Below are positions 13,960 to 30,669 of a DNA stretch of 64,000 nt, piece by piece; position 1 is the stretch's first letter; each line of letters starts with the position of its first letter. Origin of the DNA: an uncultured Candidatus Saccharibacteria bacterium. Its GTDB lineage: Bacteria; Patescibacteriota; UBA1384; CAILIB01. Under the pieces are notes generated by a model, which made no database searches, had not been told where the DNA came from, and was given only the letters and a program-made list of their open reading frames with translations. The stretch is from positions 425,929 to 489,928 of the forward strand of contig CAZQKK010000001.1 of assembly GCA_964593885.1 (NCBI GenBank), written 5' to 3'. The position numbers and the translations under genes are program-made.

Positions 13960-14045
13960 GCCTGGGTGGTGGAATGGTAGACACGCTAGCCTTAGGAGCT
14001 AGTGCCCGCAAGGGCGTGGAGGTTCGAGTCCTCTCTCAGGTACCA
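13960..14045 (+). tRNA. tRNA-Leu (anticodon UAG) with encoded 3' CCA
   Basis: manual cloverleaf: 7-bp acceptor stem GCCTGGG/CTCAGGT (two G-U pairs), 3-bp D stem, anticodon stem CTAGC/GCTAG with loop CTTAGGA (anticodon TAG), long variable arm GCCC-GCAA-GGGC, T arm GGAGG-TTCGAGT-CCTCT, discriminator A, CCA. Confidence 0.85.
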
Positions 14046-23249: not shown

Positions 23250-25370
23250 ATGGCTGAAGACTCGCTCCCACCAGTTCCACCACCAGTACCTGGCGTTGTA
23301 CCACCAGCTAGCCCACAGCCTCCTGTAGCTATTCCTGTGCCACCACCAGTTACTCCAGGGCCTGCAAGTAGCCCAGCTCCAGCGAGTGACGTTAGTGATG
23401 AAGATGTGCCACGCTCAAACCTTAGCCCTTTCAAGTTGCTGGCTAAGAAAGACCAAGGATCCGCAGCCCCACAGGCAAACGTGGTTCCACCACCAACACC
23501 AGTAGCTCCTACTATTCCCCAGCCTAGTCAGCCAGCTGGAGGAATTATGGTTGCAACTCCTAGCCGTGAAGAGCTCCTCAAGCAGGCCGCTGAAGCACCT
23601 GAAGCAAGCTTTATCCTGCCTCCACCTGAGATTATCGCTACCCAGAATAGCCAGGCAACACCTCTAGTGAGTCAGGTTCCACGTCAACCGGGAGCTGCCA
23701 TGCAGCCACTCTTTGAAAAGGATGTGCCCGCACCTAGTAAGCCAATACCAGTAAGGCAAGGTGCTCTTGGAACACCTGCGGCTCCACTTCGCGCTCAGCA
23801 GGTTCCCTTTACACCTCCAAAACAGATGGGTGCGCCAATACCACTCAATGGCGGGGTAAAGCCAAAAATCCCGGGGAGGGTCACGCCTGCCGTGCAAAAT
23901 TCGCTCAACGTAGCTGCTAAAACAGGTTTTGGTGCTGCTCCAAAAAAGCGTAACTTCACTGGTACGCTCATTATTGGGTTGCTCATCTTCATTATTGTCG
24001 GGAGTGGCGCCGCCTACGTAATGGCTAAGAATGGCTCACGCGTTCCCGTGCTCTTTAAGGTGGTTAGTGGCTTAGAGGCTAGTGGCCTTGCAAGCAATAC
24101 GCAGGCACTCTCCTACGTCCAGGCACGTACCCGATACCAGGTGCAGGGTGAGGTTGAGTTGGTGCGATCAGATCTTGTAGATGCAACAGGGAAACCTACC
24201 CTCACCAATGCCGGAGATGCGGCGGCAGGGAGTGTCTACCGCCTGAAGAGCCAAATGGGCCAAGGTGAGTTTAGCGAGAAGGGTGCCAACCACGTAGCAC
24301 TGCTTGCCCTTACGGTAAACCAGAACGATCCTATTCAGCTTGCCCTTAAAGAGAAGCCAGCCAGTACTGACACCGATAACTGGTCTATGTACTTCTCAAG
24401 CAACGATAAGCCACAGCTCTCCTCAATCAAGAGTAGTTTGGTGGCAAAATCGCTCCTCCTTCCAATTCTCCAACCTATCCCACTTGAGAAGCTGCTGACA
24501 CTCCCAACAGGGGAGCTTGCCTACCAGAAGCAGGTGGGAACAAAGGCTGGTACCGTGCTATCTGCCCACAAGTACACCGTTGCTAGCGACAAGCTTAAGG
24601 ACTACTTCCCGGCCAGTGCGGTACTTGAGAACTTTACCCTCACTTCGCGATACACCTGGGCTCAGGGTACAACCCCAGCTGCTCAGACCAGCACCGCAGA
24701 CCTAGAGGGAAAGGTGACGTACCTCCAGAAAACCTATAACTACACCGCTAAGTGGCGCTACGGAAGTTGGGATCAAGCCATAGATGCAAGTGGCGATACC
24801 AGTGGAGCAATAGCAAAGGTAACTGGGATCGAAGTTCCTACACCCACAAGCATGGCAAGTGCTACGGCGCTCATGGGGATTCTCAACCTTACTTCGCTCC
24901 CTAACACGCTTACGGAAGCCGAGGGTGGAAGTGTCTCCACTACCACCGGTGGTGGAAATTCAGGTAGCGCTATCACCCCAACTGGTGAAGGCATCACGGT
25001 GGCGGGTTCAAAGATTACCGTTGCACCCCCAGTTCCCACAAAGCCAGCTTCTACTGAGGCAAAGGCACGTGATACTCAGCGCATCAAGGACCTCGCCGAT
25101 ATCAAGCAGGCGCTCACCGCCTACAAAACCGCAAAGGGAAGCTACCCGGTGAGTATCACGCTCCTCCAGACTGCTGAAGGTGGGGTACTCCTCTCAGAAC
25201 TGGTTCCAACTTACCTGACAAAGCTCCCAATAGACCCCACAAAGACAACCTACTGGTACGAGTACACTTCTACGGGAAGTAGCTTTACCCTGAGGGCGGT
25301 TGCGGAAGATCCAGAAAGTGCTACGGTGAAAAAAGGAAGCATTTACCCATACTTTGAAGTAACTAACTAG
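23250..25370 (+). CDS. large membrane-anchored surface protein: Pro-rich N-terminus, one TM helix, extracellular domain, C-terminal pseudopilin(GspG)-like domain
   Basis: 706 aa; PPVPPPVPG repeats; TM LIIGLLIFIIVGSGAAYVMA; C-terminus ARDTQRIKDLADIKQALTAYKTAKGSYP resembles the type II secretion/type IV pilin core region but without an N-terminal prepilin motif. Confidence 0.55.
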   Translation: MAEDSLPPVPPPVPGVVPPASPQPPVAIPVPPPVTPGPASSPAPASDVSDEDVPRSNLSPFKLLAKKDQGSAAPQANVVPPPTPVAPTIPQPSQPAGGIMVATPSREELLKQAAEAPEASFILPPPEIIATQNSQATPLVSQVPRQPGAAMQPLFEKDVPAPSKPIPVRQGALGTPAAPLRAQQVPFTPPKQMGAPIPLNGGVKPKIPGRVTPAVQNSLNVAAKTGFGAAPKKRNFTGTLIIGLLIFIIVGSGAAYVMAKNGSRVPVLFKVVSGLEASGLASNTQALSYVQARTRYQVQGEVELVRSDLVDATGKPTLTNAGDAAAGSVYRLKSQMGQGEFSEKGANHVALLALTVNQNDPIQLALKEKPASTDTDNWSMYFSSNDKPQLSSIKSSLVAKSLLLPILQPIPLEKLLTLPTGELAYQKQVGTKAGTVLSAHKYTVASDKLKDYFPASAVLENFTLTSRYTWAQGTTPAAQTSTADLEGKVTYLQKTYNYTAKWRYGSWDQAIDASGDTSGAIAKVTGIEVPTPTSMASATALMGILNLTSLPNTLTEAEGGSVSTTTGGGNSGSAITPTGEGITVAGSKITVAPPVPTKPASTEAKARDTQRIKDLADIKQALTAYKTAKGSYPVSITLLQTAEGGVLLSELVPTYLTKLPIDPTKTTYWYEYTSTGSSFTLRAVAEDPESATVKKGSIYPYFEVTN

Positions 25371-25375
25371 CCACC

Positions 25376-25933
25376 ATGTTGCCACTCTACATCGTCCTCG
25401 GAGTTCTCGCCCTCGTTCTCGTCTGGCTCTTCTTCGCCTATAACGGCCTCATTGCTACTAGAAACCAAGCTGATGAAGCACTCAGCGATATTGATGTGCA
25501 GACCAAGCGTCGCTACGACCTCATTCCAAACCTCGTTGAGTCTGTGAAGGGCTACGCCAAGCAGGAGTCTTCAGTTCTTGAGAAGGTTACGGAAGCTCGT
25601 GCTGCCGCTATCAACGCTGGTCAGAGCGGTCTCAAGCAGTCTGAAGAGGCTGAGAATGTCCTTACCGGTGCCCTCAAGAGCGTCTTTGCAGTTGCTGAGA
25701 GCTACCCAGACCTCAAGTCTTCAGCAAACTTCCAGCAGCTCTCCTCTGAGCTTTCAGACACAGAGAACAAGATCATGGCAGCTCGTAGGTTCTACAACGC
25801 AACGGTTCGTGAATTCAACACCAAGCTCCAGGTGCTCCCAACTAGCATCTTTGCTAGGAGCCTGGGCTTCACCGCCAAAGAGTTCTTTGCCAGCGACGAA
25901 GCCTCAAAAGAGGTTGTCAAAGTTTCATTCTAG
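25376..25933 (+). CDS. LemA family protein
   Basis: N-terminal TM plus NGLIATRNQADEALSDIDVQTKRRYDLIPNLVE...ESYPDLKSS pattern of LemA. Confidence 0.85.
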   Translation: MLPLYIVLGVLALVLVWLFFAYNGLIATRNQADEALSDIDVQTKRRYDLIPNLVESVKGYAKQESSVLEKVTEARAAAINAGQSGLKQSEEAENVLTGALKSVFAVAESYPDLKSSANFQQLSSELSDTENKIMAARRFYNATVREFNTKLQVLPTSIFARSLGFTAKEFFASDEASKEVVKVSF

Positions 25934-25965
25934 TTTTTCTACGCGGCTGGTAGGCCGTAATCAAG

Positions 25966-26874
25966 ATGACGCTCTACACGCAAGTTGCCTCAAACCGTTT
26001 TAAAACGGCTTTCTACCTTGGGCTCTTCAGCCTCATCTTCCTTGGTGTAGGCTGGGCGTTTGCCTGGTACTTCCAGATGCCTGGCATCCTGGTGGTTGCC
26101 TCCTTCATCGTGATCATCCAGGGCATTGTCAGCTACTGGTTCTCAGATAGTATCGCTCTAGCAGCCTCTCAGGCACAGCCTCTGTCAAAAGTCTTACAGC
26201 CAAACCAGGAGGCGAGGGTAAGGAAGCTCACCGAGAACCTCTGCATCACGGCAGGGCTCAAGGTGCCACGGCTCTACGTCATCCCCGATACAGCTCTCAA
26301 TGCCTTCGCAACGGGGCGAAACCAAGACCACGCCGCAGTAGCCCTGACGGCTGGATTGGTAGAGCAGCTGGATGACAACGAGCTCTCTGGGGTTATCGCC
26401 CATGAGCTCTCCCACATTGGGAACGAAGACATCAAGCTCATGAGCATGGTAATGGTAATGGCAGGCCTGATTGCCCTGGTTTCAGACTTGGGCATGAGGA
26501 GTATGTTCTACGGAGGAGGCAGGCGGCGCAGCGATGATAACGGAGGAGGAGGTGTCATGCTCTTGATTGCTATTGCCTTGGCTATCTTGGCGCCAATTGC
26601 CGCTACGCTGATTCAACTGGCAATCTCGAGGAAGCGTGAGTTCATGGCCGATGCCACGGCGGTACTGATTACCCGCTACCCAGAAGGCCTGATTTCGGCC
26701 CTCAAAAAGATCAGCGGGGACACTGAGCCACTTGAGGTAGCCAACCGAGGGAACGCCTTCATGTACTTCTCAAACCCCCTCCACAAACAGTTCATGGCGG
26801 GTCTCTTCGCCACCCACCCTCCAGTTGAGGAGCGAATAAAGGCACTTCAGCAGGGTACGGGGATCTCTCTGTAA
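25966..26874 (+). CDS. htpX: M48-family zinc metalloprotease HtpX
   Basis: HEXXH (IAHELSHIGNED), 4 TM segments, C-terminal GLFATHPPVEERI. Confidence 0.85.
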   Translation: MTLYTQVASNRFKTAFYLGLFSLIFLGVGWAFAWYFQMPGILVVASFIVIIQGIVSYWFSDSIALAASQAQPLSKVLQPNQEARVRKLTENLCITAGLKVPRLYVIPDTALNAFATGRNQDHAAVALTAGLVEQLDDNELSGVIAHELSHIGNEDIKLMSMVMVMAGLIALVSDLGMRSMFYGGGRRRSDDNGGGGVMLLIAIALAILAPIAATLIQLAISRKREFMADATAVLITRYPEGLISALKKISGDTEPLEVANRGNAFMYFSNPLHKQFMAGLFATHPPVEERIKALQQGTGISL

Positions 26875-26883
26875 ACCATACAT

Positions 26884-26906
26884 AAAAAACCACCCGTGAA
26901 GGGTGG
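26884..26906 (-). terminator. intrinsic terminator hairpin CCACCC-GTGAA-GGGTGG with A6/T6 run, oriented for the minus-strand ThyX-like gene
   Basis: 6-bp GC stem flanked by A-run on + strand (T-run on - strand) 20 nt downstream of the stop at 26927. Confidence 0.6.
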
Positions 26907-26926
26907 TTGGAACGTTACTCCGGTGA

Positions 26927-28666
26927 CTAGAGCGGGATTTTTGGGTTTCCTCTGGCGAAAGCGTACGCCGGGGTGCGATCGCCACGAGAGAACATCTCCC
27001 ACTCGGGGAAGATCGCAACAGTGGCCACGTGCATCTCGAGAACCTTCTGTCTCACCTCGTGGTTGACATCAGGTTTTCCTCGCTGGAACGCGACGAAGTC
27101 TTGCTGGCGCAAGTTTGCCGCGTACATGTAGCCAACCAGCCAACCCATGGGCAGGATGTACTGGAGCGAGGTGGTATCGATGCCGGCCTGTAGTAGTTTC
27201 TCGTAGAGGTCCCTACTAGCATCTGCTACCCCCATGAGTGCATCGTGGAGCTCGCCAGGCGCGGGTTTGTCGTACCAGTAGAAGCCAATATCTGGAGTTG
27301 CCAGAGTTCGCTTGTGTGTGGACATCCCCATCCGGTGCAGGTCTCGCCAACCTCGGTAGCTGATTACTCCTTTGTAGGCTACGGTGACAACTTCAAACTC
27401 CCGGGGGAGCTTGTCGTACTCACCTCTACCAGCGCTGAAGAGGAGCGAATGGGCTTCCTCAAGGCTACCAGGAGGTTCAGCCCACAGACCGAAGCTGTTG
27501 AGCAGTGTTGTCTCGATTGAGCCCTCAGCATGGACGCTCGTAACGGTCGTATGCCCATAACCTGAGAAGCAAGGAGTATCGAGGTAGTTCCACGCAATGA
27601 CATTTGCCGGTGTCGGCTCGTAGTGACGAGCAAACTGGTCGGCGCCAACCAGAGCTGATTCCTCGAGGAGTAGCTCTACGAGAACCAGGTTCTCGGCAGT
27701 GCCGTCCAGGATGAGGTGTCTGAGGATGCTGGGGAAGCTTTCCCCAGAGCACGTGACACCCAGAGAGGTGCACGTACAGTTGGGCAGGAAGTTCCCACCA
27801 ACATCACAGAGCTCCCCGAAGACCGCCATATCGAGCTCCGAGCTTTTCTCGAAGCCATGACCGTAGGTCTCCCTAAGGAAGGGTCCGAAGTACCCGTCGT
27901 TGTAGTTGTTGGTAGCACTGCCTTGCATCTCGCGATACTTGGTGAAGTAGCTGGCAACCACATCTTGGATCCACAGCGATGTTTCTTCGCTGATGTCCCA
28001 CTCCTCCCAGATAGGGTAGAGCAGGGCATTCGCCAGGTTGACGTAACGGCTGGATAGTTCCACGTAGCCAGCACCCGGTCGAGTCCATTCGATTGACTTC
28101 GCGGTAAGGATCGAAACCCCTTCCACTAAGAAGTGAATGACCCCCATCCGAGCGATGGAGTTGTGGCCGTACTTGTCCAGCCAAACGCTGATGAAGCGTC
28201 TGGCCCGGATGCTCGAGGCGATGCTCGCCCAGAGTGACTTGGGGATCTGGAATGCCGTGAGGAATGCACCTACGAGTTCCGCCGCTTCTGTTGAGTAGTC
28301 GATGAACTCCTGCAAGCAGGTGATCTTCTTCTCAGCGAGGAAGCTCAGTGGGTTCTCGCTCCACTTCTCGTTTTCGATTACCTCGGTGAGGCCCGTTGAT
28401 AGCGTGGAAGGTATCCAGCTGTCAACGAAGATTCCCCGAGCGCCACGTGAGTTCGTCATGCGGCTATACATCGAGAGGAGAGCGGTAACAGCGGTTTCGG
28501 GCAGGTTCTTCAAGAACGCAACACGCTTGGTGCGGTTGGTGAAGAAGCAGTCAATGATTGATCCTTCCAAATCCGTGAAGGAGTATGGAAGGGGGGCTGT
28601 AAGGAACGTTCTTGCAGCAGCGAGGGCGCGTAACGAAGCTTTCATAAGTTTTTCTGGTCCTCCCAT
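26927..28666 (-). CDS. ThyX-family (flavin-dependent thymidylate synthase) homologue, unusually long with two ThyX-like segments and a degenerate signature in the first
   Basis: aa ~165-210 KYGHNSIARMGVIHFLVEGVSILTAKSIEWTRPGAGYVELSSRY aligns to ThyX [42 protein letters not shown] (RHR replaced by TRP); C-terminal LPMGWLVGYMYAANLRQQDFVAFQRGKPDVNHEVRQ aligns to ThyX [36 protein letters not shown]; a second RHR-like segment YRGWRDLHRMGMS lies at aa ~440. Confidence 0.6.
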   Translation of the reverse strand: MGGPEKLMKASLRALAAARTFLTAPLPYSFTDLEGSIIDCFFTNRTKRVAFLKNLPETAVTALLSMYSRMTNSRGARGIFVDSWIPSTLSTGLTEVIENEKWSENPLSFLAEKKITCLQEFIDYSTEAAELVGAFLTAFQIPKSLWASIASSIRARRFISVWLDKYGHNSIARMGVIHFLVEGVSILTAKSIEWTRPGAGYVELSSRYVNLANALLYPIWEEWDISEETSLWIQDVVASYFTKYREMQGSATNNYNDGYFGPFLRETYGHGFEKSSELDMAVFGELCDVGGNFLPNCTCTSLGVTCSGESFPSILRHLILDGTAENLVLVELLLEESALVGADQFARHYEPTPANVIAWNYLDTPCFSGYGHTTVTSVHAEGSIETTLLNSFGLWAEPPGSLEEAHSLLFSAGRGEYDKLPREFEVVTVAYKGVISYRGWRDLHRMGMSTHKRTLATPDIGFYWYDKPAPGELHDALMGVADASRDLYEKLLQAGIDTTSLQYILPMGWLVGYMYAANLRQQDFVAFQRGKPDVNHEVRQKVLEMHVATVAIFPEWEMFSRGDRTPAYAFARGNPKIPL

Positions 28667-28709: not shown

Positions 28710-28742
28710 AAAAAAATGCCGCCAAGTTGCTACTTAGGCGGC
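28710..28742 (-). terminator. intrinsic terminator (GCCGCC-loop-GGCGGC plus T7 on minus strand) overlapping the tmk stop codon
   Basis: 6-bp GC stem 28718-28742, A7 on + strand at 28710-28716. Confidence 0.55.
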
Positions 28743-29456
28743 GCGGAGAATGGGCTCTACAATCGCCCAGATGTCGTTGGCGGTTTCCTCCACGGGCTTG
28801 AGGGTGTTACCAACCTTGTCGTGGCAGTCAACCAGGTGCCAGTTGGCGTAGTGTCCGGCGAGCTCCTGGTAGAGGTTGGCAATCTTCTGGACGTGAGCAT
28901 CGCTGCTCTCGTGACCATCCTTGCCTTCCCCTCCTGTTGCCTGACGAGCATCTGCCATGGCCTGGGTGACCGAGGCTGGTGCTGTTTGAACGATGACCAG
29001 ATCTTCAACAAGGATGCCATTGTGGTGGTACTCTAGGTTGGTAAGCCAGTTGAGGTATTCCTCTAGTTCAACGGGATCGTCGATCTTGGCACCCTGGTAG
29101 GCCATGTTACTTGCCACGTACCTGCCAGTGACGATGTTGATTCCTGCTTCCAGCTTTGGCAACACTTCGCGGGTGAATTCCATCCGATCAACCGCGTACA
29201 GCACGCTCGCGAGCTTGTAGTGGATGTCGTTGGTCTCGCCAAGGCGCCTGCCCAGGTACTCCTTGATGAGTTGACCGTAGGGACCTGCTTCGTAACGGGG
29301 AAGTGCTGCTTCAGCGACGCTGAAACCAGCTTCGCCAATGCGCTTGCACAGCTCTCTGACCTGGGTAGTTTTACCCACGCCACCCGCACTGTCGAGGACT
29401 AAGAGTTTTCCGGGGTAGTTACCCCGGAGTTGGTGGTAGGGACGTAATTGCATCAT
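28734..29456 (-). CDS. tmk: thymidylate (dTMP) kinase
   Basis: P-loop LLVLDSAGGVGKTTQ, Tmk DRY-region TGRYVASNMAYQGA, lid region; aligns along its length with E. coli Tmk. Confidence 0.8.
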   Translation of the reverse strand: MMQLRPYHQLRGNYPGKLLVLDSAGGVGKTTQVRELCKRIGEAGFSVAEAALPRYEAGPYGQLIKEYLGRRLGETNDIHYKLASVLYAVDRMEFTREVLPKLEAGINIVTGRYVASNMAYQGAKIDDPVELEEYLNWLTNLEYHHNGILVEDLVIVQTAPASVTQAMADARQATGGEGKDGHESSDAHVQKIANLYQELAGHYANWHLVDCHDKVGNTLKPVEETANDIWAIVEPILRAA

Positions 29457-29562: not shown

Positions 29563-30669
29563 TTAGGGATTAGGCTCAGCGAAGAACTTCGCCAACCTGA
29601 CGCAGTCTTGGTTCTGGTAGTTGTTGGTACCCGTGCTTCCGTAGGGTTTCTCAGGTGGGGCGCTCATCATCTCCAGCTGGAGCAAGCCAACTGGCTGCTG
29701 GTGTCCGAGTATGAGGGTAGTTAACCCGATGTTCCTAATCTCAAACACCGCACGAGCGCCGCGAAACGCAGGTTTCTCGTTCCAGCCAAAGTGGGGATCG
29801 AAGAACCCCGCATCGTGGCTGAGGAGGGCGCCGTACCGGTGGTCGTGGGCAACCATCTCGCCGCAGACATCCATGGGGATGCAGAGCTGCTCGCACGAAG
29901 CAGCAAGCACGCACTGACCAGGATCGAGGTAGAGCTTTCCCTTGTAGAGACCCTTCGGGGCGAAGTAGTCTGTGGGGTCGGTGTCCTTCCGGCTCAGATC
30001 TAGGGTTCGTCCCGTTCGCCTACCGAGGTAGTTACTGGGAGAGAGTGAGAGATCAAGGTGGAGCTGGATACCGTTCTCCTGCACTGATCCAGGGCACGTA
30101 CCGCCATCAAGCACCCTGTACTGTTCGATGAACTGCCTGAGGGCATTGCCGCGGATGGTCTTGAGCCTCCCAGACTTGATCCGAAGCTGGGCGGCGGGTT
30201 CGCCACCACGTACCGTCAACCTGATGATTTGGGGGGTGATGAGCATGTAGAGCCTGCCCTGGTACCCCTTTGGTACGTGGTTGATGGCGGTGGGATTCTC
30301 GGTGACCACCTGGATTCCCGCAAAGATTCTCCCGAAGGAGCTCTTGGGGTTCACCAGGCCGTCCAAGTACGGGGGGAGGTGCAGGCTTCCCGGGATTTCT
30401 GTGATGTACAGGCTTCCCGGGCTGAGTGTGACGCTCCCTCCCATAGATAGGACGTGGTCATTGAGCCTGTGGCTCTTGATGAAGTCTAGGATGTGGGTGG
30501 TGCCGTCAAGGTTGGGAACCGTCGAGATCTCGGTGATTCTATCGCCAATGACGAGGTCCCACGAGCTTGGCTGCAGGTGCTGAAGGTCGAAGCGCTCAAG
30601 AAAGCGCTGGTCGGCAAGGGTTTTGAGCTGGGTATCGCAGAGCGTTCCAGCGGCGTATGGGTTTTTCAT
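29563..30669 (-). CDS. large (368 aa) dCTP-deaminase-like protein of the dUTPase superfamily (two-lobed 'DCD'-type)
   Basis: C-terminal HDHRYGALLSHDAGFFDPHFGW resembles the dCTP deaminase/dUTPase motif (TAGWIDPGF.G); about twice the size of canonical Dcd; adjacent to tmk and the ThyX-like gene. Confidence 0.6.
   Translation of the reverse strand: MKNPYAAGTLCDTQLKTLADQRFLERFDLQHLQPSSWDLVIGDRITEISTVPNLDGTTHILDFIKSHRLNDHVLSMGGSVTLSPGSLYITEIPGSLHLPPYLDGLVNPKSSFGRIFAGIQVVTENPTAINHVPKGYQGRLYMLITPQIIRLTVRGGEPAAQLRIKSGRLKTIRGNALRQFIEQYRVLDGGTCPGSVQENGIQLHLDLSLSPSNYLGRRTGRTLDLSRKDTDPTDYFAPKGLYKGKLYLDPGQCVLAASCEQLCIPMDVCGEMVAHDHRYGALLSHDAGFFDPHFGWNEKPAFRGARAVFEIRNIGLTTLILGHQQPVGLLQLEMMSAPPEKPYGSTGTNNYQNQDCVRLAKFFAEPNP

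What the first reader, a model, noticed from the sequence alone, without database searches (positions are those of the whole stretch)
26927..28666. 579-aa tandem ThyX-like protein with degenerate RHR signature in the first repeat
Canonical ThyX is about 220-250 aa. This ORF aligns to ThyX twice. Segment 1 preserves KYGHNS and the downstream YxELSxRY, but the catalytic RHR triad reads TRP and the NAR region reads CSG. Segment 2 retains HR...S and N-LR...H-E motifs. There is also a roughly 90-aa insertion. This resembles a fused pseudo-dimer in which one active-site half has degenerated. That arrangement would be a notable variation on the homotetrameric ThyX, whose active sites form at subunit interfaces. 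Alternatively the protein may have a different substrate, for example hydroxymethylation instead of methylation.
Basis: seen in the sequence. Interest (0 to 1): 0.65.

Follow-up and report, generated by a model that had tools for sequence, protein, structure and literature searches.

The report
Tandem two-domain ThyX thymidylate synthase
This gene encodes a double-length, internally duplicated version of the flavin-dependent thymidylate synthase ThyX, in which each half keeps a different part of the active site; the architecture is widespread and already annotated, but this Patescibacteria branch has lost the classic RHR signature in both halves.

Summary
The ORF is real: 26927-28666 on the minus strand, 579 aa. 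NCBI starts it at M8, giving 572 aa. It consists of two complete ThyX-fold domains, D1 (~28-351) and D2 (352-579). Pfam, profile-profile alignment through an intermediate family, and two AlphaFold models with Foldseek hits to ThyX crystal structures all support this.

The two halves have degenerated in complementary ways. D1 keeps GH-x-S and the substrate loop E-L-S-x-R-Y. D2 keeps R441/D442/R445, N518-x-R520 and R529 (T. maritima R174).

The fusion is not new. A broader tandem-ThyX family of about 500-550 aa occurs in Tectomicrobia, NC10, Dependentiae, cyanobacteria and DPANN archaea, and gives thousands of database hits. A 2009 paper noted a domain-duplicated ThyX in Chloroflexi.

The Patescibacteria subfamily is a derived branch of that family:
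- D2's RHR has become R-[Q/M]-G.
- D1's NAR has become S-G-E.
- E58 has become R173.
- D1 carries a ~77-aa helical insertion relative to T. maritima ThyX.

The neighbouring genes point to dTMP synthesis. tmk lies next to the gene in 17 of 40 related loci, and dcd/dut, tdk and glyA also recur.

Most likely the protein works as a dimer of fused pseudo-dimers with two composite active sites instead of four. Interest is moderate.

The parts
26927..28666 (-). Full ORF of the tandem ThyX, 579 aa including the stop codon. The probable true start is M8 at 28645, giving 572 aa.
27614..28585 (-). D1, the first ThyX-fold domain (residues ~28-351).
   Evidence: Pfam Thy1 E=1.1e-9. hhalign to broad-family D1 E=8e-50, and that domain to Tm ThyX E=9e-12. 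D1-only AF2 model with Foldseek hits to Mtb/Tm ThyX.
28211..28462 (-). Helical insertion in D1 (residues 69-152). It begins with the invariant S68-R69...R74-G75-x-R77-G78.
   Evidence: All-helical in the AF2 secondary structure. Invariant residues in 120/120 homologues. About 50 aa longer than in the broad tandem family (mapping).
28148..28171 (-). YGHNSIAR (166-173), equivalent to the Tm H51-G-H53-E-T55-P-F-E58 motif. H168 and S170 are kept; E58 is replaced by the invariant R173.
28043..28099 (-). KSIEWTRPGAGYVELSSRY (190-208). It holds the degenerate RHR (W194-T195-R196) followed by the intact substrate loop E203-L-S205-S-R207-Y208 (Tm E86, S88, R90, Y91).
27740..27748 (-). S307-G308-E309 in place of Tm N163-A164-R165. 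Invariant or nearly so in the subfamily.
26930..27613 (-). D2, the second ThyX-fold domain (residues 352-579). Its N-terminal ~64 aa (352-415) are variable.
   Evidence: hhalign D2 vs Tm ThyX probability 79-83%. D2 vs broad-family D2 E=5e-27, and that domain vs ThyX E=8e-14. PDB profile hit to TM0449 E=2.4e-4. Whole-chain Foldseek hits.
27308..27355 (-). RGWRDLHRMGMSTHKR (438-453), the D2 counterpart of the ThyX motif. R441 = Tm R74, D442 = Q75, R445 = R78. H79 has become M446 and R80 has become G447. There is no S88/R90 loop; H451 and R453 are invariant instead.
   Evidence: The ungapped match to the broad-family consensus 'GAYRDLQRHRMxTQ'; conservation.
27047..27115 (-). NLRQQDFVAFQRGKPDVNHEVRQ (518-540). 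N518 = Tm N163, R520 = R165, R529 = R174 (the uracil-activating Arg). N535-H536-E537 and R539 are also conserved.
28734..29456 (-). tmk (dTMP kinase), immediately upstream on the same strand and probably co-transcribed.
   Evidence: Pfam PF02223 and NF005923. tmk is a neighbour in 17 of 40 related loci.
29563..30669 (-). Two-domain dCTP deaminase (DCD_N + DCD_C) upstream on the same strand.
   Evidence: DCD/dUTPase-like neighbours recur in related loci.
26888..26908 (-). Terminator-like hairpin plus T-run directly after the thyX stop codon.
   Evidence: consensus scan only

Best explanation
The gene encodes a flavin-dependent thymidylate synthase of the tandem (domain-duplicated) ThyX type. 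One chain carries two ThyX folds that stand in for two subunits of the canonical homotetramer. By inference, two chains would therefore form a pseudo-tetramer.

In canonical ThyX each active site is built from three subunits:
- Subunit A gives the RHR motif and R174, which bind the flavin and activate the uracil.
- Subunit B gives T55/S and R165, which bind the flavin phosphates.
- Subunit C gives the loop E86-S88-R90-Y91, which binds dUMP and acts as a lid.

In this protein D2 retains the A-role residues (R441, D442, R445, R529, plus N518/R520). D1 retains the C-role loop (E203, S205, R207, Y208) and the H168-x-S170 motif. Only sites that combine D2 as 'A' with D1 as 'C' can be complete, which gives two composite sites per pseudo-tetramer instead of four.

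The product, dTMP, would go to the adjacent dTMP kinase. dCTP deaminase upstream would supply the dU nucleotide.

The Patescibacteria subfamily is a derived branch of the tandem family that has rebuilt the phosphate/flavin pocket:
- H79 and R80 are lost in D2.
- R147 and R165 are lost in D1.
- New invariant basic residues appear: R173, R438, H451, R453, K467.

What is shown: the two ThyX domains, the complementary residue pattern, the strong purifying selection, and the gene neighbourhood. What is inferred: the quaternary arrangement, the number of sites, the flavin cofactor, and the activity.
For: Two ThyX domains.

Residue mapping through the intermediate family, with conservation in 120 subfamily and 50 broad-family sequences.

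Subunit roles of the residues:
- Review of Mtb/Hp ThyX structures (PMC6514825, section 3.1): RHR and R199 come from subunit A; S71 and R190 from B; S105, R107 and Y108 from C.
- PBCV-1 structure paper (PMC3498832): S88 and Q89 in one monomer, Q75 and R182 in another.
- PMC8316439: R174 activates dUMP; S88, R90 and Y91 assist methylene transfer.

Selection: more than 40 positions are invariant in 120/120 homologues, spread over both domains, and they include the catalytic residues S205, R207 and R529.

Context:
- tmk is adjacent here. Among two neighbours on each side in 40 Patescibacteria loci, tmk occurs 17 times, DCD-like 9, dUTPase 4, thymidine kinase 3 and SHMT 2.
- No ThyA or second Thy1 was found among the window ORFs of 150 aa or more that were scanned.
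- The whole-chain AF2 pTM of 0.90 means the two domains pack in one confidently predicted arrangement.
Against: - No canonical RHR exists in either domain. H79 and R80 are described as binding the FAD phosphates and dUMP.
- Equivalents of R147 are absent in both domains.
- The TIGR02170 thyX equivalog score is 24 bits against a cut-off of 87.9.
- I could not read the model coordinates. Whether D1 and D2 reproduce a ThyX subunit interface, and which one, is therefore untested.
- Only 64 kb of the genome was seen, so another thymidylate synthase elsewhere cannot be excluded.
- No biochemical data for this subfamily were found.
Confidence: 0.68

Rival explanations
1. Neofunctionalised ThyX-like enzyme. 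The Patescibacteria subfamily keeps the ThyX chemistry scaffold but uses another flavin form (for example FMN rather than FAD). Alternatively it acts on another nucleotide, such as UMP as PolB does, or dCMP, or it performs hydroxymethylation.
For: - Of the five residues that the review lists as hydrogen-bonding the FAD phosphates and ribityl (R78, H79, R80, T55', R165'), only R445 and S170 are strictly kept. R520 is kept in 81/120 sequences.
- The dUMP-phosphate ligands R80 and R147 are lost.
- Many new invariant polar residues are specific to the subfamily.
- The PolB UMP/dUMP methylase is among the structural neighbours.
Against: - The uracil-activating R529 and the S205/R207/Y208 loop are invariant.
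- tmk is the commonest neighbour, and dcd/dut, tdk and glyA also recur. That fits a dTMP product.
- No other thymidylate synthase was seen in the window.
Confidence: 0.15
2. Only one domain matters. D1 is a decayed structural appendage, and D2 domains from different chains form the working sites among themselves.
For: D2 resembles canonical ThyX more closely than D1 does at the profile level. D1 has charge-reversing substitutions at R165 and near R174.
Against: - D2 has no equivalent of the S88-R90-Y91 loop in either the subfamily or the broad family. That loop is present and invariant only in D1.
- D1 carries as many invariant polar residues as D2.
Confidence: 0.05
3. Catalytically inactive pseudoenzyme or regulator derived from ThyX.
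For: The hallmark RHR motif is lost, and the score against the thyX equivalog model is low.
Against: Known catalytic residues are invariant, and the gene lies in a conserved thymidylate-metabolism neighbourhood. According to PMC12455944, dTMP synthesis belongs to the minimal gene repertoire of groundwater Patescibacteria.
Confidence: 0.04
4. A single ThyX domain with an unrelated extension, the second match being chance.
For: A direct D1-versus-D2 profile comparison within the subfamily is not significant.
Against: - Each half matches Thy1 independently.
- Each half matches full-length ThyX through the intermediate family at 97-98% probability.
- In the broad family, D1 and D2 match each other at 93.7% probability, E=2e-7.
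- The D1-only model hits ThyX structures, and the whole-chain hits, which have different identity and TM values, fall on D2.
Confidence: 0.01

Closest known systems
Broad tandem (domain-duplicated) ThyX family, about 500-550 aa. Named members come from Candidatus Entotheonella/Tectomicrobia, NC10/Methylomirabilis, Dependentiae, the cyanobacterium Chroococcopsis, and the DPANN archaea Micrarchaeota and Aenigmarchaeota. A duplicated ThyX was noted for Chloroflexi in PMC3224940.
   Same: - The architecture is collinear, D1 then D2.
- D1 matches D1 at E=8e-50 and D2 matches D2 at E=5e-27.
- The division of labour is the same: the S88/R90/Y91 loop occurs only in D1, and R74/R78/R174 only in D2.
- Shared domain-specific invariants include S68-R69, K190, R196, D288, P295, E325, E425, R441-D442, R445, R529 and R539.
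   Different: - The broad family keeps a canonical R-H-R in D2 (R 80/80, H 76/80, R 78/80 in the 80-sequence tier-2 set). It also keeps N-A-R, E58 and R147 in D1.
- The window's subfamily has R-[Q/M]-G, S-G-E, R173 and G291 at those positions.
- The subfamily has a D1 insertion about 50 aa longer, and it has many private invariant residues.
Canonical single-domain ThyX/FDTS (T. maritima TM0449, M. tuberculosis Rv2754c, PBCV-1 A674R): homotetramers of about 220-250 aa subunits.
   Same: Each half has the same fold. The shared key residues are split between the halves: H53, T55/S, E86, S88, R90 and Y91 in D1; E58, R74, R78, N163, R165 and R174 in D2. The gene sits in a thymidylate-metabolism context.
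   Different: - Two domains are fused in one chain.
- No single domain carries the full RHRxxS...SxR signature.
- H79, R80 and R147 are absent.
- The protein scores below the TIGR02170 cut-off.
- Two rather than four complete sites are expected (inferred).
Chlamydia trachomatis ThyX (Griffin et al. 2005, J Biol Chem 280:5456; the reference is confirmed).
   Same: From memory only, this enzyme is about 529 aa. That is double length and would place it in the tandem class. It was shown to be an active FDTS.
   Different: I could not retrieve its sequence or a statement of its length with the tools. Its relation to this subfamily is untested.
PolB UMP/dUMP methylase of Streptomyces cacaoi (PDB 4p5a).
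   Same: A ThyX-fold enzyme that appears among the structural matches. It shows that the fold can change nucleotide specificity.
   Different: It is single-domain. No specific sequence affinity to it was seen.

Membership tests
ThyX / Thy1 superfamily (Pfam PF02511) | Significant match to the Thy1 profile above the gathering score | tested here: met
   57.1 bits against a cut-off of 24.8 for the whole protein. D1 alone scores 38.8 bits. D2 alone scores 21.4 bits, slightly below the cut-off.
ThyX / Thy1 superfamily (Pfam PF02511) | ThyX fold | tested here: met
   Foldseek probability 1.0 to TM0449, Mtb ThyX and others, for the whole chain and for D1 alone. Full-length profile-profile matches for both domains.
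Canonical FDTS (NCBIfam TIGR02170 equivalog) | Score above the equivalog cut-off | tested here: not met
   24.4 bits against 87.9.
Canonical FDTS | ThyX motif RHRxxSxxxxSxR within one domain | tested here: not met
   D1 reads W-T-R-P-G-A-G-Y-V-E-L-S-S-R: the S-x-R part is kept and R-H is lost. D2 reads R-M-G-M-S-T-H-K-R-T: only the first Arg is kept.
Canonical FDTS | Uracil-activating Arg (Tm R174) and the N163/R165 flavin contacts | tested here: met
   Present in D2 only: R529 in 120/120, N518 in 119/120, R520 in 81/120.
Canonical FDTS | Homotetramer with four sites, each at the interface of three subunits | not testable with these tools
   Model coordinates are not readable and no multimer prediction is available. 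The roles were inferred from the literature.
Canonical FDTS | Bound FAD and dUMP-to-dTMP activity with CH2-THF and NADPH | not testable with these tools
   Needs biochemistry.
Tandem (domain-duplicated) ThyX family | Two collinear ThyX domains, each matching its counterpart domain in other tandem ThyX proteins | tested here: met
   hhalign D1-D1 E=8e-50 and D2-D2 E=5e-27; the cross pairs are not significant. HMM hits at E 1e-46 to 1e-35 to proteins of 450-560 aa.
Tandem (domain-duplicated) ThyX family | Substrate loop (E86-S88-R90-Y91) only in D1; R74/R78/R174 only in D2 | tested here: met
Tandem (domain-duplicated) ThyX family | Canonical R-H-R in D2 and N-A-R, E58 and R147 in D1 (consensus of the broad family) | tested here: not met
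   The window subfamily has R-[Q78/M40]-[G88] in D2, and S-G-E, R173 and G291 in D1.
Thymidylate-synthesis gene neighbourhood | Linkage to tmk, dcd/dut, tdk or glyA | tested here: met
   tmk and dcd are adjacent in the window. In 40 related loci: tmk 17, DCD-like 9, dUTPase 4, TK 3, SHMT 2.

The most novel reading that the evidence does not exclude
The Patescibacteria tandem ThyX has dispensed with the His and second Arg of the RHR motif in both domains, and with R147 and the D1 R165. It has replaced them with a private set of invariant basic residues (R173, R438, H451, R453, K467). This could mean a different way of holding the flavin and nucleotide phosphates. For example, it might use FMN or another flavin without the AMP moiety, which could suit organisms with minimal cofactor metabolism. 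It might also have an altered nucleotide substrate, all within a two-site pseudo-tetramer.
Probability: 0.15. Interest if true: 0.7.

Novelty: new variant of a known kind. Interest (0 to 1): 0.4.

Why it matters
ThyX is an antibacterial target and a mechanistically unusual enzyme whose active sites need three subunits.

Tandem ThyX proteins are natural asymmetric versions in which each residue's subunit role is hard-wired into one of two domains. They could be used to dissect which subunit contributes what, and whether two sites suffice. No solved structure of a tandem ThyX was found in the PDB copy searched.

The Patescibacteria branch also shows that the 'essential' RHR signature can be reduced to single arginines split over two domains. 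If the enzyme is active, this would redefine the minimal ThyX motif. It would also matter for annotation, because the protein fails the thyX equivalog model.

Tried and rejected
- A direct phmmer search of the protein against PDB sequences found nothing relevant. The family profile gave only weak hits to TM0449.
- Direct hhalign of subfamily D1 against D2 was not significant. Homology of the halves had to be shown through the broader tandem family.
- The weak alignment of residues 272-337 to the N-terminus of TM0449 was rejected. It would have implied a second domain starting at about residue 280. The AF2 secondary structure and the intermediate-family alignment place those residues in the C-terminal half of D1.
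- Three different registers for the D1 'RHR' region were obtained: ungapped by eye, HMMER, and through the intermediate family. I adopted the last, which is ungapped against T. maritima in the broad family.
- Literature searches for tandem, fused or duplicated ThyX, for CT632, and for ThyX in Patescibacteria gave only the 2009 remark on Chloroflexi. Key papers were not held: Leduc 2004, Koehn 2012 and Ulmer 2008.
- I could not obtain the Chlamydia or Chloroflexi sequences. Two cluster look-ups of 20 tier-2 proteins gave organism names for only two (Tectomicrobia and Dependentiae); two others carried only the name 'thymidylate synthase ThyX'.
- A simple tblastn for the window's Tmk and DCD in the related loci under-detected them. 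The Pfam scan of neighbouring ORFs was used instead.
Full report
**The observation**

The ORF is at 26927..28666 on the minus strand and encodes 579 aa. An identical NCBI protein (P0001, from a 497-kb contig) is 572 aa. It starts at M8, whose ATG at 28645 lies 12 nt downstream of a GGAGGA.

**Two ThyX domains**

- Pfam Thy1 (PF02511) matches the whole protein at E=2.6e-15 in two stretches.
- Scanned separately, residues 1-351 (D1) give E=1.1e-9 (38.8 bits, profile positions 36-159). Residues 352-579 (D2) give E=2.4e-4 (21.4 bits, profile positions 108-191).
- The thyX equivalog TIGR02170 is far below its cut-off, 24 bits against 87.9.
- A profile of 40 homologues hits T. maritima TM0449 in the PDB only weakly.
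- Subfamily D1 and D2 do not match each other directly.

The link became clear through an exhaustive HMM search. After about 65 close Patescibacteria representatives comes a second tier of proteins of about 450-560 aa, at E 1e-46 to 1e-35. These are also two-domain proteins. The profile-profile results are:

| Comparison | Probability | E-value | Coverage |
|---|---|---|---|
| Window D1 vs tier-2 D1 | 100% | 8e-50 | |
| Window D2 vs tier-2 D2 | 99.7% | 5e-27 | |
| Tier-2 D1 vs canonical ThyX | 97.4% | 9e-12 | Tm 13-211 |
| Tier-2 D2 vs canonical ThyX | 98.1% | 8e-14 | Tm 4-211 |
| Tier-2 D1 vs tier-2 D2 | 93.7% | 2e-7 | |

The structure predictions agree:

- The whole-chain AlphaFold2 model has pLDDT 90 and pTM 0.90. 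Its best PDB matches are ThyX structures, with TM 0.65 normalised to the target and 12-14% identity.
- A D1-only model (pLDDT 85) also hits Mtb and Tm ThyX, at E=1e-5, TM 0.52-0.56 and 18-21% identity.
- Because the identity and TM values differ, the whole-chain match must lie on D2.

**Anatomy**

D1 spans about residues 28-351 and contains an all-helical insertion (residues 69-152) between helix 1 and the GH-x-S helix. The S68-to-Y166 distance is 98 aa. It is 21 aa in T. maritima and 48 aa in the broad tandem family.

D2 spans residues 352-579. Its first ~64 residues are variable and less confidently predicted.

**Residue mapping**

I mapped T. maritima residues through the intermediate family and counted conservation in 120 subfamily and 50 broad-family sequences.

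| Tm residue(s) | Window D1 | Window D2 |
|---|---|---|
| H53, T55 | H168, S170 kept | not kept |
| E58 | invariant R173 | E425 kept |
| R74, Q75 | K190, S191 | R441, D442 kept |
| R78-H79-R80 | W194-T195-R196 (only the Arg equivalent to R80 survives) | R445-M446-G447 (only the first Arg survives) |
| E86, S88, R90, Y91 | E203, S205, R207, Y208 kept | loop absent; invariant H451 and R453 instead |
| R147 | G291 | Q502 |
| N163-A164-R165 | S307-G308-E309 | N518-L519-R520 (R520 in 81/120) |
| R174 | H317 | R529 kept, invariant |

In the broad tandem family D2 reads R-H-R (80/80, 76/80 and 78/80 in the 80-sequence tier-2 set). D1 there still has E58, R147, N163 and R165. The division of labour is therefore ancestral to all tandem ThyX: the substrate loop sits in D1, and the RHR and R174 sit in D2. 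The Patescibacteria subfamily is a further-derived branch.

More than 40 positions are invariant in 120/120 subfamily sequences, and they are spread over both domains. Neither half is decaying.

**How it most likely works**

Published structures assign the residues of one ThyX active site to three subunits (PMC6514825):

- RHR and the Arg equivalent to Tm R174 come from subunit A.
- S/T55 and R165 come from subunit B.
- The S88-R90-Y91 loop comes from subunit C.

The PBCV-1 structure paper agrees (PMC3498832). R174 activates dUMP, and S88, R90 and Y91 assist methylene transfer (PMC8316439).

Applied to this protein, D2 can play role A, and D1 can play role C (and, in the broad family, role B). 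A dimer of fused chains would then form a pseudo-tetramer with two complete sites and two dead ones. This is inference. I could not read the model coordinates, so the intrachain interface was not compared with a real ThyX interface.

**Function from context**

- tmk lies immediately upstream on the same strand, and a two-domain dCTP deaminase lies above that.
- A terminator-like hairpin follows thyX, and another follows dcd (consensus scans only).
- In 40 related loci, all Patescibacteria, I scanned two neighbouring ORFs on each side. The commonest families were thymidylate kinase (17), DCD-like (9), dUTPase (4), thymidine kinase (3) and SHMT (2).
- The rest of the window is ordinary Patescibacteria housekeeping, with no ThyA or second Thy1 among the ORFs of 150 aa or more that were scanned.

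This supports dTMP synthesis and gives no support to hydroxymethylation.

**Comparison with what is known**

- The broad tandem family is large. A profile of 50 tier-2 proteins finds 5776 proteins at E<=1e-10.
- Its named members come from Entotheonella/Tectomicrobia, NC10/Methylomirabilis, Dependentiae, a cyanobacterium and DPANN archaea. They are annotated 'FAD-dependent thymidylate synthase'.
- The Patescibacteria proteins carry the same PGAP name.
- From memory only, Chlamydia trachomatis ThyX is about 529 aa and was shown to be active (Griffin 2005; the reference is confirmed). I could not verify its length or sequence.
- No tandem ThyX structure appeared in the PDB searches.

**Verdict**

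Two points need correcting. The degeneration is complementary in both halves rather than confined to the first. The architecture is an established, if poorly studied, kind.

What is distinctive here is the Patescibacteria variant:

- It has no RHR in either domain.
- It has lost R147 and the D1 R165.
- It has a private set of invariant basic residues.
- It has a long D1 insertion.

That leaves a minority possibility (about 15%) of altered cofactor or substrate handling.

Interest is moderate (0.4). Novelty: new variant of a known kind.

Noticed in passing
window 29563-30669 (-): The dCTP deaminase upstream of tmk-thyX is the 368-aa two-domain form (DCD_N PF06559 plus DCD_C PF22569; NF005734 at 193 bits, below its cut-off of 283). 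It is itself an internally duplicated dUTPase-fold protein. Two neighbouring nucleotide-metabolism genes are therefore both fused pseudo-oligomers.
   Followed up: partly
window 28645 vs 28666 (-): The start codon is ambiguous. The mechanical ORF starts at ATG 28666, directly after a TAG. The NCBI protein starts at ATG 28645 (M8), which has a GGAGGA 12 nt upstream.
   Followed up: partly
proteins P0395, P0420, P0452, P0498, P0355 (and 65 tables): The broader tandem ThyX family includes DPANN archaea (Micrarchaeota, Aenigmarchaeota, Bilamarchaeaceae) and Dependentiae. It also includes large-genome Tectomicrobia, NC10 and a cyanobacterium. This patchy, cross-domain distribution suggests horizontal transfer.
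   Followed up: no
window 25376-26874 (+); loci L018, L042, L044 and others: The LemA-HtpX pair lies next to the tandem thyX here. It recurs near the gene in several related Patescibacteria loci: LemA in 9 of 45 and HtpX in 3.
   Followed up: no
window 23250-25370 (+): A 706-aa ORF with a very proline-rich N-terminal third and an apparent membrane-spanning segment. It was not scanned on its own against any protein library.
   Followed up: no
window 13960-14042 (+): A single tRNA gene is the only Rfam match at gathering threshold in the 64-kb window.
   Followed up: no
window ORFs of alignment A4 (exact ORFs not identified): Two ORFs in the window match the HTTM domain (PF05090, best E=2.6e-11). 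I did not identify which of the 30 ORFs they are.
   Followed up: no
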